This document shows, piece by piece, positions 15,073-21,000 of a stretch of 64,000 nucleotides of DNA (positions within the stretch are counted from its first letter, which is position 1; the number at the start of each line of letters is the position of its first letter). Source of the stretch: Zootoca vivipara (Eukaryota); contig NC_083288.1 of the NCBI RefSeq assembly GCF_963506605.1, positions 28,892,001 to 28,956,000 on the forward strand, given 5' to 3'. Position numbers: made by a program.

Positions 15073-18000
15073 TTCCCAAAAATATACATTTTAAAAAGTA
15101 TTTTGATACCCATTAAAAAATAAAATAAAATAACCCTTAACAACTCCATTAGACCATCCAGGAACAGGGGGGTGGAAAACAACTAATGAAAAACTAAGCT
15201 GTGGACTGCACATCAGATCAGAGTTGTTAGGCAAAAAAAGGAGCAAAGTAAAACTTCTGTCCAGATGTGACAAACATGATTTTCTGAAATTAACTGCAAT
15301 TACACAACCTTGACTTTGTAATTATTATCCTTTGTAATTTTATTGAAAAATAAAAAGTGCAAAATTACTAGTGCACAGAGTGAGACACAAACAAAAGAAA
15401 CAAGAAATAGTACCCATGTAGAAAACAAATCGGAAGAAAGATATTGTGTATATTACAGGGGGGGGGGGACTTGTTATTGTAGTTAGCCAGATGTTAATCT
15501 AATATGGCATTTATTTTTTAAAAAAATATTCAGCATATCAGATGCTAGACGGAAAAGGGAAAAAAAGTAAAACCTCTGTCCAGGTATGACAAACAAGATT
15601 TTCTGAAATCTTCTACAGTTCCACAGAGGAAACCCCTACTTTGTAATTATTTTCCTTTGTTATTATAAAGTAGACTCTAATTAACTCTGACACGTGTAAA
15701 ACTACCTGCAATTATTAGTGCTGGAGACTGCAAAGGATGTTATATATGTGTCATATTAAAAAATATGGCTCAGGACTAACAATATTTATTCTTCCTGTTT
15801 AAGGTCTAAAAGTTTCAGCCTTTGAAACTTGCAGGCAATATATTGATAGATTAGTCTGTGGGAACACAATAAGGTAGGTCTAGTGAAGGTTTGCCCTTAT
15901 ACTCAGGATGGTGATATTTGTGATGTCGCTGCTGGCATTGCTTTCTCACATGTCATGCAAGTCTCACATTGTGAAGTGTCATGTCCATGATCCACACCCT
16001 CCGCTTCACGAGTATCACCAGACAGGGGAGCTCATTCTTGGTGGCATAGCTTCTCACAGCTTCATTGTCTCCAAACAATTATCCTTCACTGAAGAACCTC
16101 CACCAGCATTGGTTGAAGAACTTCTGTAAGGGGTTCTCCTATCTTTTTTTTTTTTAATCTTAGCCTTAGATTTTCATCTTCATAGCCAAAATTTAGACTT
16201 GGTATGATACTCATCAAGCTATTTTAAAATCTATTTAAAAAGTACCTCTGTGGTCATAATTCAGAAAACATTCTGAATTATAAGTAGTTGGGAAACACCA
16301 GTACTCAAAATATGAATCTTACTAAGATGTAGTAGTTGTTGTTGTTGGCATCTGTCTTGAGGGACAATGCAGAGACAACAAGACCCCACTCTCAGTCTCG
16401 CTGATTTGGTCCAAAGGAAAGCACAGTGATACATTTGTCATCAACTTGGCTGCAGGAATTGCCATAAGGAGGCATGCAAGAAGTCTTCCATCCATTTTAG
16501 GGACTCCTCTCCAAATTCATCTAGGGTGCAGATTTTCCCTTGCGGTTTACTCCCAATGCCTTTCTCATGAATTTGTGTAGCCAAAAGGCAGCAGATGTTT
16601 AGGATCACTTTTATTTCTCCTATATGGGCTGCCTTCCAATATTTACAACATCCATCTGCCCCTCATTTCCCTCTACAGTATGTGCAATAACCACCTTCTT
16701 AACTGTTGGGCCCACTCTGTGTCTTCTCTCCTCAATCCACCAGAGACTTTCTTCACATGATGGAGAAGTCCCAAACTTACTGAGGGTTTGAGACCCATTG
16801 ACTACCCTCACCTAGTTTAGCTGGCCAGTGAAGCTGTTCGATAGGGTGGCATGGAGACAGCTTCTAGGAACCACAGATGAGAACTGGATGTGTCCCCTAC
16901 CAGAGGTCCTACCCCCTCCCCTAATACTACATATATCCCACCTTACTGAGAAGTACCTATTATTATGTATAGAGATGATTATTGATATATACTTTCCTTA
17001 TGATATTTACTTTGCTTAGGACAATTTAGGCTTAGAACTATTTAGGCTTACCTAAAAATGTGGCAAAAATGATGGAGTAGTGATCGTTTTTCAAAGCATG
17101 AGTACGTTTCTGATGTTTAATGTCACACTTGTTCAGTGTAGTAACTAAGATTTACCAGCACAGTGATACATTTGTCATCAACTTGGCTGCAGGAATTGCC
17201 ATAAGGAGGCATGCAAGAAGTCTTCCATCCATTTTAGGGACTCCTCTCCAAATTCATCTAGGGTGCAGATTTTCCCTTGCGGTTTACTCCCAATGCCTTT
17301 CTCATGAATTTGTGTAGCCAAAAGGCAGCAGATGTTTAGGATCACTTTTATTTCTCCTATATGGGCTGCCTTCCAATATTTACAACATCCATCTGCCCCT
17401 CATTTCCCTCTACAGTATGTGCAATAACCACCTTCTTAACTGTTGGGCCCACTCTGTGTCTTCTCTCCTCAATCCACCAGAGACTTTCTTCACATGATGG
17501 AGAAGTCCCAAACTTACTGAGGGTTTGAGACCCATTGACTACCCTCACCTAGTTTAGCTGGCCAGTGAAGCTGTTCGATAGGGTGGCATGGAGACAGCTT
17601 CTAGGAACCACAGATGAGAACTGGATGTGTCCCCTACCAGAGGTCCTACCCCCTCCCCTAATACTCCATATATCCCACCTTACTGAGAAGTACCTATTAT
17701 TATGTATAGAGATGATTATTGATATATACTTTCCTTATGATATTTACTTTGCTTAGGACAATTTAGGCTTAGAACTATTTAGGCTTACCTAAAAATGTGG
17801 CAAAAATGATGGAGTAGTGATCGTTTTTCAAAGCATGAGTACGTTTCTGATGTTTAATGTCACACTTGTTCAGTGTAGTAACTAAGATTTACCAGCAAAT
17901 CCTGACCTTGGCATCTGCAATGAAAGAGATCAATGAAAACCCTCAGATTCTCAGGTTTAAATTATGGTTATGGTTATGGTTATGATATAGGGTCTTTTCT

Positions 18001-21000
18001 TTTCTTTTCTTTTCTCTTTTCTTTTCTTTTCTTTTCTTGGCCAAGCCTTTTTGCTGAATTTTCCTTTGGCCAAAAATGAATATCAGATCTAAATGCATTA
18101 TTCCCTTTGGGAAACACATCAAGCATTTATGCTGAATTTTTTTTTTACCAATACAGGGATGGTGATTTGAACTTAATATGCACAATTTCAGATTTTCACC
18201 AATAAAATGAGCAAGGATGGTGGTTTCAACATTGTGTGGTGGTTGTTAATAATTTTATTTACCACTTGTCCTTTGGGGTAAGGTCCCAAGGTTTGTAACA
18301 ACATTAAAAACAATTTTAGAAAATCAATATGCAAAATTTGGGCTCAGATGTTCTAATACTACCTACTTCTGTTACATGTCACATTTCAAATATTTACCCA
18401 ATTACCTGCAGCAAAATCTAGGTGCCACTCCCAGCTGAGTGAATATGGGATTGCAACTTTCTTGGAGGCGAGAGTTGGACTTCGTATAATATTGAGGAAA
18501 GCTATGTTGAAATACATTAACAAGTTGCATTTGATTATAACCTGATGAATGTTCCAGGTCATGACTAATTTGAATTTGCTTTATGAATTGCATTGGTTAA
18601 TTGTAATGTTATGTATTACATTGGTTAATCATTTCATTTTAAGTAGGCCACCCTAAACTACTACCACAAATGTGGTATAAAATAATGGAAAAGATTTTAG
18701 ACAATGTAGGATATGATGTAGATTGCAATTCTCATTCTAGCGTGGTGACTAAGAATTACCAGCATGTCCTGGCCTTGGCATTTGCAGTAAAGGAAATCAA
18801 TGGAAATTCTCAAATTTTACCCAATACCACTTTGGGCTTCCACATCTTTGACAGCTATTTCATTGCAAAGGGTACATATCATGCCACACTGCTCCTTACG
18901 TCCACCGCAGAGAGATTTGTTCCCAACTATAAATGTGATACTCAGAATAATTTGATAGCTGTCATTGGGGGTCTTGACCCCCTAACTTCTCTTCATGCAG
19001 CAACAGTCTTGGATATCTACAAAATTCCACAGGTATATCAGTCATTGTGCTGTGCATGATAGATTTATGGGTGTTTTCTCCTTAAGATTGTATTGCCTGC
19101 AGTATTTCACTTTGAGGTTCAGAGGCTAAAATATGTGAACTGGTATTGTGTAGGCTTCCATAGCTTAGCAAGACTCTTATTCAGAAAATACAAAAGAACA
19201 TGCTCGCTCGCTCTCACACATGCATATGGTTCTTTTACTTTTTCTTGCCACTAGTTGTTTCATCATCTGAGTTTTTAAAGAATTCAGGATCTGTTTCAAG
19301 GAAACCTGTCAGTCTCCAAAAGGAAGATGCATTATCTAAGTAAAAAAAAAAAAGTTTTGAAAAAAATAAATTGAATTTTGCACGGCTCACTGTCATCATC
19401 TAGTGCAGGGGTCCCCAAACTAAGGCCCGGGGGCTGGATGTGGCCCAATCGGCTTCTCAATCCGGCCCACGGAAGGTCCAGGAATCAGCATGTTTTTACA
19501 TTAGTAGAATGTGTCCTTTTATTTAAAATGCATCTCTGGGTTACTTGTGGGGCATAGGAATTTGTTCATATTTTTTTCAAAATATAGTCCGGCCCGCCAC
19601 AAGGTATGAGGGACAGTGGACCAGCCCCCTGCTGAAAAAGTTTGCTGACCCCTGATCTAGTGCACCTTAAAACACATTTAAAATGTTTTATTTACATCTG
19701 TATAGCTGAGTCCATGGGACCCGGGTGGCACTGTGGGTTAAACCACAGAGCCTAGGGCTTGCCGATCAGAAGGTTGGCAGTTCGAATCCCCGCAACGGGG
19801 TGAGCTACTGTTGCTCAGTCCCTGCTCCTGCCAACCTAGCAGTTTGAAAGCACATCAAAGTGCAAGTAGATAGATAGGTACCGCTCCAGCAGGAGGGTAA
19901 ATGGTGTTTCCGTGTGCTGCTCTGGTTTGCCAGAAGTGGCTTAGTCATGCTGGCCACATGAACTGGAAGCTGTACGCCGGCTCCCTCGGCCAATAAAGCA
20001 AGGTGAGTGCCGCAACCCCAGAGTCGGTAATGACTGGACCTAATGGTCAGGGGTCCCTTTACCTTTACCTAGCAGAGTCCATGGTTTCCTCTTTCCTCAC
20101 CTTTATCGACACTCATTTTGGCAGTCCTCCACCTACAGATCTCAGAGCTTTATTGGGGGGGGTGGCTTTCATATCCACACTAGAAGTCTCAATAAATGTT
20201 CAGTAATTTTTGCATGATAAATATCTTGTATTTATTTATTGAACAATATGGACCTAAATGCATAAACAAACCTTCCTTCCTTATTTATTTATTTTTATGT
20301 ATTTATTTATTACTTAAAATCACTTGTTAAAACAGGAAAAAAATAGTAAAACAGTAAAAGTAAGAAAATTTCATAATCATACTTTTTCAAAAGTTAAAAT
20401 ACTACAACAGATCCAAAGTGTATCAACTTTAAAATCATCTGGGTAGGCATACCTAAACAATAATGCTTTTAGGAGGCACAAAAATAGTCCAATGAAGACA
20501 TCTGCTTGATTTCAATGTGCAGGAATTCCAAAGTGAAGAACCTGCCAAAGGAAACAAACAATCAAGTTCTTAAAAATGTGAAACAGGTATTATGAGGCAC
20601 CTGTAAGAGTGCCAATTCCACTATCATAGCTTTAAGGTAGGCATATGTGGGCTAAGGCAATCTCATAGTTCTGCAGTTCTGTTTATTGTGCTGCTATACA
20701 TTTAAAAATGTTGCAGAAAGACTCTCTGGATATCTCCATTAAAGCATTCCTATCTGTATGTTTCCATTTCTGTCCCTCCCCCCTTTAGCTCACATATGGT
20801 CCTGCTCCCATCATGCATGATAAAACTCCAGGGCTCTCCTTCTACCAAATGGTCCCACAAGAAGCTCTTCAGTATGAGGGGATTCTCTCCTTACTTCTGC
20901 ATTTCAGGTGGACATGGATTGGGCTCCTTATGATGGATCTTGAGAATGGAGAACAATTTGTGCAAAAGGTGGTTCCAATGTTTTCCTCTAGTGGTATCTG

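What the first reader, a model, noticed from the sequence alone, without database searches (positions are those of the whole stretch)
15670..18740. Gene B is a probable chimera: reciprocal loss of two first exons in the B and E loci
Seen: the E locus reads relic exon 1 (57204), 81-nt exon-2 stub (57664), second module plus exon 1 (59567/59892), exon 2 (60811). The B locus aligns to it colinearly (15672-15907 ~ 56952-57203; 16808-16970 ~ 57299-57505; 17874-18565 ~ 57664-58865; 18695-18740 ~ 60758-60810). B kept the upstream exon 1 and lacks the ~1.9 kb with the downstream one; E did the opposite. Inference: the ancestor had two promoter/exon-1 units feeding one exon 2-6 body, and each duplicate fixed a different one. 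This is a route to shuffling promoter, signal peptide and N-terminal lobe.
Basis: partly seen in the sequence, partly recalled or inferred. Interest (0 to 1): 0.7.

Follow-up and report, generated by a model that had tools for sequence, protein, structure and literature searches.

The report
Swapped first exons in lizard V2Rs
Two neighbouring copies of a lizard vomeronasal (pheromone-type) receptor gene begin with different, anciently duplicated first exons, each copy lacking the one the other kept; this is a well-preserved example of ordinary gene-family reshuffling, not a new kind of system.

Summary
The window is a tandem array of five six-exon V2R genes (A-E) from a lacertid lizard, most likely Zootoca vivipara. 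Public models named for that species match E and D at 100%.

Every coordinate in the finding holds. B and E are colinear from about 240 nt upstream of exon 1 to exon 2. E holds a 93-nt relic of an upstream exon 1, both loci hold an 81-nt exon-2 stub, and E has 1891 nt with its working exon 1 where B has 127 unmatched nt.

B's exon 1 matches the relic better than E's working exon 1 (88.2% against 79.6%). Its likeness to the relic equals the B-E likeness of exons 2-4. Rooted trees only lean that way (90/88; alternatives p-AU 0.09).

In Podarcis muralis, E-type bodies carry either head in gene models, which supports a two-headed ancestor.

Not shown: that B ever held the second head, that both heads served one body, or that 16125 is spliced to 18741.

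Exon 1 encodes only a signal peptide plus about 50 residues. B's exon 6 is also E-like.

Verdict: real feature, a known kind of process, modest interest.

The parts
15262..15624 (+). Two copies of the family-wide upstream element before gene B: distal core at 15262-15275, proximal cores at 15581-15594 and 15610-15624
   Evidence: Pattern searches, alignment A2, internal repeat 15211-15342 ~ 15531-15667 at 75.5%
15671..15907 (+). Upstream block of B, colinear with the block before E's relic (56952-57203)
   Evidence: 80.0% identity over 235 aligned columns; blastn hits
15908..16125 (+). Gene B exon 1 (head a): 218 nt, open, GT donor, ends in phase 2
   Evidence: 88.2% to the relic over the first 93 nt and 78.4% to E's exon 1b. 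No Pfam domain
16420..17897 (+). 741-bp tandem duplication inside B's intron 1. Its boundary cuts the stub, leaving a partial stub copy at about 17137-17160
   Evidence: 99.865% over 741 nt; sequences printed
17874..17954 (+). B's copy of the 81-nt exon-2 stub, with AG before it and GT after it
   Evidence: 82.7% to E's stub and 70-75% to the real exon 2 starts. 9 of 26 residues differ between the two stubs
18567..18693 (+). 127 nt of B without a match in E, lying where E has the 1891-nt segment that holds head b
   Evidence: Junctions; no similarity above shuffles
18741..19032 (+). Gene B exon 2 (292 nt). The 46 nt before it and its acceptor match E's
   Evidence: 90.8% to E's exon 2; ANF_receptor match
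20789..27611 (+). Gene B exons 3 (20789-21649), 4 (21801-22028), 5 (23743-23869) and 6 (26710-27611 with the stop codon). All are open with GT/AG sites
   Evidence: Pfam ANF_receptor, NCD3G and 7tm_3. Exon 6 groups with Zootoca E-type genes
56952..57203 (+). Upstream block of the relic head a in E. The shared element just before it (about 56905-56950) is degenerate
   Evidence: No match to either element core there at up to 2 or 3 mismatches
57204..57296 (+). Relic of exon 1 (head a) in E: the first 93 of 218 nt. Its 3' part, donor and about 0.67 kb of intron are missing
   Evidence: Translation runs into a stop. The blastn hits abut at E 57295-57301 but lie 796 nt apart in B
57664..57744 (+). 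E's copy of the 81-nt exon-2 stub
58867..60757 (+). Segment present in E only (1891 nt). It holds 58867-59553 of unknown origin, head b's upstream element (59567-59602), exon 1b, segment R2 (60354-60446) and an element with inverted terminal repeats (60497-60732)
59892..60109 (+). Gene E exon 1 (head b), used in the public model P0026
   Evidence: P0026 is 100% identical over exons 1b, 2, 3 and 4
60811..63431 (+). Gene E exons 2 (60811-61102), 3 (62176-63039) and 4 (63204-63431). The gene then runs off the window

Best explanation
B and E are daughters of one duplicated V2R locus that already carried two 5' heads in tandem. Each head consists of the family's upstream element, about 300 nt of upstream sequence, and a 218-nt first exon encoding the signal peptide plus about 50 residues. 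The upstream head (a) is followed by a decayed 81-nt copy of the start of exon 2, so the two-headed state probably began as a partial duplication of a gene's 5' end. In B the roughly 1.9 kb that holds head b in E is absent. Head a (15908-16125) is therefore B's only first exon, and its GT donor can join the acceptor at 18740/18741 in frame. In E a roughly 0.8-kb deletion removed the last 125 nt and the donor of head a, and its upstream element has decayed, so head b (59892-60109) is used. Shown: colinearity, intact exons with fitting phases, the truncation of head a in E, and the closer likeness of B's head to the relic. Inferred: that B once held head b, that both heads ever worked with one body, and that B's exon 1 is spliced to its exon 2.
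For: Four colinear blocks are far above the reversed control, with sharp junctions. In a three-way comparison of 269 upstream plus 96 exon columns, B and the relic share a base against head b at 81+13 sites. The other two pairings have 28+6 and 24+5 sites. B-relic identity is 88.2% in the exon and 80.0% upstream. That equals B-E identity in exons 2-4 (86.8-90.8%) and is at or above that in introns (66-77%). B against head b is 78.4% in the exon and about 55% upstream. With D as outgroup, B+relic gets 90/88 support and 8 of 11 informative quartet sites. All six exons of B are open with GT/AG sites and fitting phases and give ANF_receptor, NCD3G and 7tm_3 matches. In the exon 3 tree a B clade (window B, Lacerta agilis, Podarcis raffonei; 96/95) is sister to an E clade (99/96), so the B/E split predates these genera. 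Within the E clade, P0002 carries an a-type head: it is 97% identical to the relic over 31 residues and forms a clade with it at 94/88. P0025, P0008, P0007 and P0026 carry b-type heads. The shared upstream element is intact before A, B (twice), C, D and head b but degenerate before the relic.
Against: Tree support is weak. On the 93 exon nt alone B, the relic and head b form a trichotomy, and B+head b is not rejected (p-AU 0.37). With 80 nt of upstream sequence added, both alternative pairings stay at p-AU 0.09. The exon 1 protein tree leaves the a-, b-, B- and F-type clades unresolved. No trace of head b was found in B's 127-nt filler, so a deletion in B cannot be told from an insertion in E by sequence. 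The left 690 nt of the E-only segment match nothing else in the window. No public model joins a B-type head to a B-type body. The B-body models P0018 and P0029 lack exon 1. The B-type head is joined to D-type exons 2, 4, 5 and 6 in three species (P0001, P0003, P0004). Exon 1 also differs more than the body in the A/C pair (84.9% against 93-97%), so a divergent exon 1 alone proves little. P0002 is the only a-type model with an E body. It is a computed gene model, not a transcript.
Confidence: 0.55

Rival explanations
1. Gain in E only. The B/E ancestor had a single head (a) with the stub in intron 1, as B has now. After the split, about 1.9 kb carrying another paralog's upstream element, exon 1 and the start of its intron was inserted before exon 2 of the E lineage. 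Head a then decayed there.
For: B shows no remnant of head b. Head b is about twice as far from both a-heads as they are from each other, which also fits a foreign donor. The E-only segment starts with about 690 nt that match nothing else in the window. Heads and bodies are re-paired elsewhere in the family.
Against: It requires an insertion in the right orientation, inside intron 1, that carried a complete head. No donor was found: head b's upstream sequence aligns with A, C and D only over the short shared element. Segment R2 inside the insert is a paralog of R1 and of B's R in the same intron, which fits a local duplication better. Both head types occur with E-type bodies in Podarcis muralis as well, so the insertion would have to predate that genus split anyway.
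Confidence: 0.2
2. Head a plus stub is the leftover 5' end of a separate upstream paralog whose body was deleted within exon 2. It was not a second promoter of the same gene. On this reading B is a true two-donor chimera, made when a second deletion removed the downstream gene's own head. The later steps are the same as in the best explanation; only the origin differs.
For: The stub keeps about 60 nt of intron, the AG and exactly the first 81 nt of exon 2 in both loci. It is 63-75% identical to every real exon 2 start and closest to none. 9 of its 26 residues differ between B and E, so it is old and unconstrained. The spacing from the stub to head b (about 1.9 kb) is like the intergenic spacings in the array (1.9-4 kb, from the exon coordinates).
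Against: Segment R lies after the stub in the a unit but between exon 1 and exon 2 in the b unit. Neither a simple truncation nor a simple tandem duplication gives that order. The sequence after the stub has no likeness to the 3' flanks of exon 6 elsewhere in the window.
Confidence: 0.3
3. B's exon 1 is not B's working first exon. It belongs to another transcript, as in the Podarcis and Lacerta models that join a B-type head to a D-type body, or it is unused and B is headless. On this reading there is no chimeric product.
For: P0001, P0003 and P0004 (three species) join a B-type head to D-type exons 2, 4, 5 and 6. The Podarcis raffonei B-body model P0018 starts at an ATG in the intron just before exon 2. 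No public representative holds the window's B exon 1 or exon 3 at 100%.
Against: Models of this family often omit exon 1. 43 of 127 retrieved models have no exon-1-like start. The model of the window's own gene D (P0076) starts at an intronic ATG although an open exon 1 with a GT donor lies 2.7 kb upstream. B's exon 1 is open, has the same GTAAGG donor as the other four genes, fits exon 2 in phase and has two copies of the shared upstream element. The three D-joined models lack exon 3, which makes them doubtful.
Confidence: 0.15

Closest known systems
Partial and chimeric gene duplicates (review PMC3449122; passages read)
   Same: A duplicated 5' fragment of a gene is later joined to another copy's body by a secondary rearrangement. 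The review proposes this route for most chimeric duplicates.
   Different: Both donors here are close paralogs of one family, so the product is a like-for-like head swap and not a new domain combination. Ancestral and derived states could not be assigned with an outgroup, which the review says is required.
Complementary loss after duplication (duplication-degeneration-complementation model; recalled, no call)
   Same: Two sub-parts present before the duplication are lost reciprocally in the daughters: head b is missing in B and head a is broken in E.
   Different: It is not shown that both heads were in use before the duplication, nor that they differed in expression. Both carry the same upstream element.
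Hybrid genes from unequal exchange or deletion in tandem arrays, such as globin fusion genes and CYP21A2/CYP21A1P chimeras (titles seen only in the listing; otherwise recalled)
   Same: A deletion between neighbouring homologous units fuses the 5' end of one unit to the body of the next.
   Different: The junction here lies in an intron and has 127 nt of unmatched filler. No sign of homologous exchange at the junction was found.
Clusters with several promoter-bearing first exons spliced to a shared body, such as clustered protocadherins and UGT1A (recalled, no call)
   Same: Several first exons, each with its own upstream element, lie before one body.
   Different: There are only two heads, one of them is dead in each copy, and alternative use was not observed.
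Squamate V2R expansions (PMC3590772; passages read)
   Same: The same receptor family, greatly expanded in squamates. That paper raises homogenisation by gene conversion as an open possibility.
   Different: In the passages found, that paper does not deal with exon structure ('exon' occurs 0 times in its main text). The head swap and the exon 6 homogenisation seen here are not described there.

Membership tests
V2R / class C GPCR (vomeronasal type-2 receptor) | Extracellular ligand-binding domain (Pfam ANF_receptor) | tested here: met
   B exon 2 scores 29.8 bits and exon 3 scores 71.7 bits, both above the 25.4 cut-off. Exon 4 scores 15.6 bits, below the cut-off, but matches the end of the profile.
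V2R / class C GPCR (vomeronasal type-2 receptor) | Cysteine-rich linker (NCD3G) and class C seven-helix domain (7tm_3) | tested here: met
   B exon 5 matches NCD3G at 58.1 bits. B exon 6 matches 7tm_3 at 285.9 bits across profile positions 1-251 of 251.
V2R / class C GPCR (vomeronasal type-2 receptor) | Six-exon layout with conserved lengths and phases, and close relatives named V2R | tested here: met
   Exons are 218, 292, about 850-864 and 228 nt in all five genes, with GT/AG sites. B's exon 5 is 127 nt. The nearest public proteins are named 'vomeronasal type-2 receptor 26-like'.
V2R / class C GPCR (vomeronasal type-2 receptor) | Expression in vomeronasal sensory neurons | not testable with these tools
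Chimeric gene (two donor lineages in one transcription unit) | The 5' part and the body have different histories relative to the sister gene | tested here: inconclusive
   Position and likeness place B's head with E's relic, not with E's working head. Rooted trees give 90/88 support, with alternatives at p-AU 0.09.
Chimeric gene (two donor lineages in one transcription unit) | Ancestral and derived arrangement assigned with an outgroup locus | not testable with these tools
   No squamate genome DNA collection is offered. Only protein models could be compared.
Chimeric gene (two donor lineages in one transcription unit) | A transcript that joins the two parts | not testable with these tools
   Only the splice sites and phases could be checked, and they fit.
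Reciprocal loss of alternative first exons after duplication | Both heads present before the B/E duplication | tested here: inconclusive
   The distance from head b to either a-head is about twice the a-a distance, and both head types occur with E-type bodies in Podarcis muralis. No B-lineage locus with head b is known.
Reciprocal loss of alternative first exons after duplication | Complementary state in the two daughters | tested here: met
   B has an intact head a and no head b. E has head a cut to 93 nt and an intact head b.
Reciprocal loss of alternative first exons after duplication | Both heads were used with one body | not testable with these tools
   Only computed gene models are available: P0002 with an a-type head, P0025 and P0008 with b-type heads. 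They come from different loci (sequences).

The most novel reading that the evidence does not exclude
Lacertid V2R loci of this subfamily were ancestrally two-headed, and heads (upstream element plus signal-peptide exon) are repeatedly re-paired with receptor bodies. Examples are reciprocal head loss in B and E, a-type or b-type heads on E-type bodies in Podarcis muralis, and a B-type head on D-type bodies in three other lacertids. If heads carry the signals for receptor choice, this would uncouple which neurons express a receptor from what the receptor binds.
Probability: 0.15. Interest if true: 0.55.

Novelty: new member of a known kind. Interest (0 to 1): 0.3.

Why it matters
Each vomeronasal neuron is believed to express very few V2R genes (general knowledge, no call), so the part that carries the promoter matters as much as the part that binds ligand. 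This locus keeps the intermediate stages of a head exchange: the relic, the stub, both junctions and both daughters. It therefore shows one concrete route by which a tandem receptor array re-pairs regulatory 5' ends with receptor bodies. The practical gain is for annotation. Exon 1 is missing from 43 of 127 public squamate V2R models retrieved here, including the model of the window's own gene D. Head-body pairings in three other lacertids look inconsistent with those in this window. Repertoire counts and trees built from such models mix parts with different histories. B's exon 6, for example, follows the species and not the gene lineage.

Tried and rejected
Default blastn missed the weak intron blocks, so I re-ran it with word size 7 and +1/-1 scores plus a reversed-sequence control.

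I looked for a trace of head b in B's 127-nt filler. The best local score was 13.0 against a shuffle mean of 13.4, so there is none.

My idea that B 18650-18680 matches the site just before E's inverted-repeat element failed: score 11.5 against a shuffle mean of 12.6.

Segment R was tried as a marker for which E unit B follows. All three copies are 62-64% alike over 132 columns, so the likeness is uninformative, although the flanks of B's R continue to align with R1.

The left part of the E-only segment (58867-59553) was searched against the whole window and matched only itself.

Tandem Repeats Finder returned nothing for 15000-19000 because its period limit is 500. The 741-bp duplication rests.

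A search with residues 1-72 of P0002 found no further a-type heads.

Four literature searches and three look-ups found nothing on first-exon exchange in V2R genes.

Structure prediction, complex prediction, the protein atlas, Rfam and the representative search were not used, because they bear on none of the open questions.

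
Full report
WHAT THE WINDOW IS. The window holds five genes (A-E) on the + strand with the six-exon layout of vomeronasal type-2 receptors. Exon lengths are 218, 292, about 850-864 and 228 nt, with GT/AG sites and the same phases in all five. Taken one at a time, gene B's exons match ANF_receptor (exons 2-4; exon 4 scores below the cut-off), NCD3G (exon 5) and 7tm_3 (exon 6). Exon 1 matches nothing. 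Public models named Zootoca vivipara are 100% identical to E's exons 1b, 2, 3 and 4 (P0026) and to D's exons 2, 3, 4 and 6 (P0076). The window is therefore from a lacertid lizard, most likely that species. It is not human. Transposon remains lie between the genes: an RVT_1 frame at 280-1410 and a copia-like RVT_2 frame at 54021-56483. The N run at 50823-50962 was left alone.

THE OBSERVATION.
- Default blastn gives 15671-16000 ~ 56952-57296 (77.8%, E 4e-77), 15884-16157 ~ 59868-60139 (77.4%), 17843-17963 ~ 57632-57753 (82.8%) and 18694-19340 ~ 60758-61396 (79.3%).
- Sensitive blastn adds 16802-17162 and its twin 17539-17963 ~ 57295-57753 (61-64%, E down to 3e-35), and 18081-18562 ~ 58296-58860 (58.7%, E 6e-25). 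The reversed-sequence control gave nothing better than E 0.005.
- Local alignments place the junctions at B 18566|18694 and E 58866|60758. E therefore has 1891 nt where B has 127 nt, and those 127 nt match nothing in the E-only segment above shuffles.
- The relic begins with ATG at 57204, follows exon 1 for 93 nt and then runs into a stop. Relative to B it lacks 796 nt (B 16006-16801): the last 125 nt of the exon, the donor and about 0.67 kb of intron.
- Read by eye, both B flanks of that gap carry ACCCTC, which suggests a deletion at a short repeat. This is my inference.

- B carries the 81-nt stub too (17874-17954). Both stubs have AG before and GT after, but 9 of their 26 residues differ and they are only 63-75% identical to any real exon 2 start. 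They are decaying relics, not a conserved extra exon.
- B's intron 1 holds a 741-bp tandem duplication at 99.87% identity that cuts the stub. It is either very recent or an assembly error.
- A segment R occurs after the stub in both loci and again in E's intron between exon 1b and exon 2.
- A shared upstream element (cores CAGATGTGAnAAAC and CTTCTGCAATTCCAC) lies 325-460 nt before the ATG of A, C, D and head b. B has two copies of it, one 327 nt and a second 646 nt before its ATG. In the alignment the copy before the relic is degenerate. Six of the 10 matches to the first core lie before an exon 1, against 2.8 matches expected by chance in the whole window.

WHICH HEAD MATCHES WHICH.
- By position, B's exon 1 corresponds to the relic, because the flanks on both sides are colinear.
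- By likeness, over the first 93 nt B-relic is 88.2%, B-head b is 79.6% and relic-head b is 78.5%.
- Over 269 upstream columns the figures are 75.1%, 55.4% and 53.9%. In a pairwise alignment B-relic upstream identity is 80.0%.
- In the three-way alignment, B and the relic share a base against head b at 94 sites. The other two pairings have 34 and 29 sites.
- The B-relic distance (JC 0.13 in the exon, 0.23 upstream) equals the B-E distance in exons 2-4 (0.10-0.15) and is at or below that in introns (0.28-0.45). B against head b is 0.25 in the exon.
- So the a-heads separated when the bodies did, and head b is older or foreign.

AGAINST THIS. Rooted trees are weak.
- The 93 exon nt give a trichotomy, and B+head b is not rejected (p-AU 0.37).
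- With 80 nt of upstream sequence added and D as outgroup, B+relic gets 90/88 support and 8 of 11 informative quartet sites, but both alternatives remain at p-AU 0.09.
- A more divergent exon 1 is not special in itself. A and C are 84.9% alike in exon 1 but 93-97% alike in exons 2-4.

RELATED SPECIES (PROTEIN MODELS ONLY). I searched B's exon 1 and exon 3 separately, then residues 1-72 of P0002. For the per-exon trees (LG+G4) I used 22 of the 127 retrieved proteins: the lacertid proteins nearest to B, D and E plus one cordylid. Segments covering less than 80% of a window exon were dropped.
- Exon 3: a B clade (window B, Lacerta agilis P0029, Podarcis raffonei P0018; 96/95) is sister to an E clade (99/96). 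The B/E split therefore predates these genera.
- Exon 1: there are separate clades for the B-type head (95/90), the a-type head of the E lineage (relic plus P. muralis P0002; 94/88), the b-type head (98/96) and two more. Their mutual order is unresolved.
- Inside the E body clade, P0002 has an a-type head while P0025, P0008, P0007 and P0026 have b-type heads. This is the best outside support for a two-headed ancestor. P0002 is 97% identical to the relic over 31 residues.

COMPLICATIONS.
- No public model joins a B-type head to a B-type body. P0018 starts at an ATG in the intron just before exon 2, and P0029 starts inside exon 3.
- The B-type head is joined in three species (P0001, P0003, P0004) to D-type exons 2, 4, 5 and 6, without exon 3. 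I cannot explain this without the genomes.
- It weighs less than it seems. 43 of 127 retrieved models lack any exon-1-like start, and 20 begin within 40 residues of exon 2. Among these is P0076, the model of the window's own gene D, which has an open exon 1 with a GT donor 2.7 kb upstream.
- No public representative matches B's exon 1 or exon 3 at 100%.

MECHANISM. The best reading (confidence 0.55) has three steps.
- A 5' unit (upstream element, exon 1 and part of intron 1) was duplicated, leaving two heads before one body with the stub as debris.
- The whole locus then duplicated into B and E, before the lacertid genera split.
- B lost about 1.9 kb with head b. The window's E lost 0.8 kb of head a, and its upstream element decayed.

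Rivals: head b was inserted in the E lineage only (0.2). Head a plus stub is the remnant of a separate upstream gene, the same later steps with a different origin (0.3). B's exon 1 is not B's working first exon (0.15). An assembly error as the cause of the whole pattern is unlikely, because the copies differ by 12-45%.

WHAT THE SWAP CHANGES. Exon 1 encodes a signal peptide and about 50 further residues. In P0002 the ANF_receptor match starts at residue 84, which lies in exon 2. The swap therefore exchanges little of the mature receptor. Both heads bring the same family-wide upstream element, so a change of regulation is possible but not indicated.

A SECOND MOSAIC IN B. B's exon 6 is 100% identical over 300 residues to a Zootoca E-type model (P0007) and 98% identical to E's own model. 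It groups with them (100/97) and not with the B-body orthologs. By eye, B's exon 5 still looks B-type. Recent gene conversion of the seven-helix exon is the likely cause.

COMPARISON AND NOVELTY. Partial duplicates later fused into chimeric genes are well described (PMC3449122, passages read). Hybrid genes from deletions in tandem arrays, and complementary loss after duplication, are textbook material (recalled). Four searches and three look-ups found no account of first-exon exchange in V2R genes. PMC3590772 mentions gene conversion only as a possibility (passages). I rate this a new member of a known kind, with interest 0.3.

LEFT OUT OR UNCHECKED.
- The joined coding sequence was never built or searched.
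- No collection of squamate genome DNA or transcripts is offered. The phage, plasmid and E. coli collections are irrelevant.
- Supplements of papers were not consulted. Those of PMC3590772 may list squamate V2R models.

Noticed in passing
26710-27611 (gene B exon 6): B's exon 6 is 100% identical over 300 residues to the Zootoca E-type model P0007 and 98% identical to E's model P0026. It groups with them (100/97) and not with the B-body orthologs of Podarcis and Lacerta. This looks like recent gene conversion of the seven-helix exon.
   Followed up: partly
1944-1979, 15262-15275, 15581-15624, 29698-29711, 41420-41455, 59567-59602: A conserved upstream element (cores CAGATGTGAnAAAC and CTTCTGCAATTCCAC) lies 325-460 nt before the ATG of A, C, D and E's head b. 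B has two copies, 327 and 646 nt before its ATG. The copy before the relic head (about 56905-56950) is degenerate. It is a candidate family promoter element.
   Followed up: partly
16420-17160 and 17157-17897: A 741-bp tandem duplication at 99.87% identity lies inside B's intron 1, and its boundary falls inside the stub. It is either very recent or an assembly error.
   Followed up: partly
41877-42094 (gene D exon 1) and 44768-44835: The public model of gene D (P0076) starts at an ATG in the intron just before exon 2 and omits an open exon 1 with a GT donor 2.7 kb upstream. 43 of 127 retrieved squamate V2R models likewise lack an exon-1-like start.
   Followed up: partly
Proteins P0001, P0003, P0004 (Podarcis raffonei, Lacerta agilis, P. 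muralis) against window genes B and D: These 586-residue models join a B-type exon 1 (79-85% identical to B's) to D-type exons 2, 4, 5 and 6 and lack exon 3. They are either a further head exchange in those species or mis-joined models. This is unexplained.
   Followed up: partly
2334-2551 against 30070-30287 (exon 1 of A and of C): A and C are 93-97% identical in exons 2-4 but only 84.9% in exon 1. This is another head-body discordance. The bodies may have been homogenised, or a head replaced.
   Followed up: no
38657-39163, with flank 39473-40055: A stray, frame-shifted piece of a V2R exon 6 lies between C and D. Its downstream flank resembles the flank after A's exon 6 (14265-14501, 72-80%). 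It is the remnant of a lost gene copy.
   Followed up: no
58071-58292; also 6824-7038 (-), 9981-10202, 19723-19942 (-), 63798-64000: Five copies of a repeat of about 220 nt (85-92% identity), probably a SINE. The copy at 58071 is an insertion in E relative to B.
   Followed up: no
60497-60732: An element with 22-nt inverted terminal repeats (95% complementary) lies in E's intron between exon 1b and exon 2 and is absent from B. It looks like a miniature inverted-repeat transposon. A related piece lies at 46345-46429.
   Followed up: partly
54021-56483 and 280-1410: A copia-like polyprotein frame (RVT_2 and Pol_BBD) lies upstream of E's relic head, followed by more transposon-like frames on the minus strand up to about 56720. 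A non-LTR reverse transcriptase frame (RVT_1) lies at the window's start.
   Followed up: partly
Proteins P0005, P0006, P0032, P0033, P0035 (the 'F-type' sister clade of B+E): By eye, their exon 1 resembles the a-type head in its first half (LLPEMTCKTH) and the b-type head in its second half (SNALAF..PPQ.LPEEL). This hints at exchange within exon 1. P0005 also pairs an F-type front with a B/E-type exon 6.
   Followed up: no
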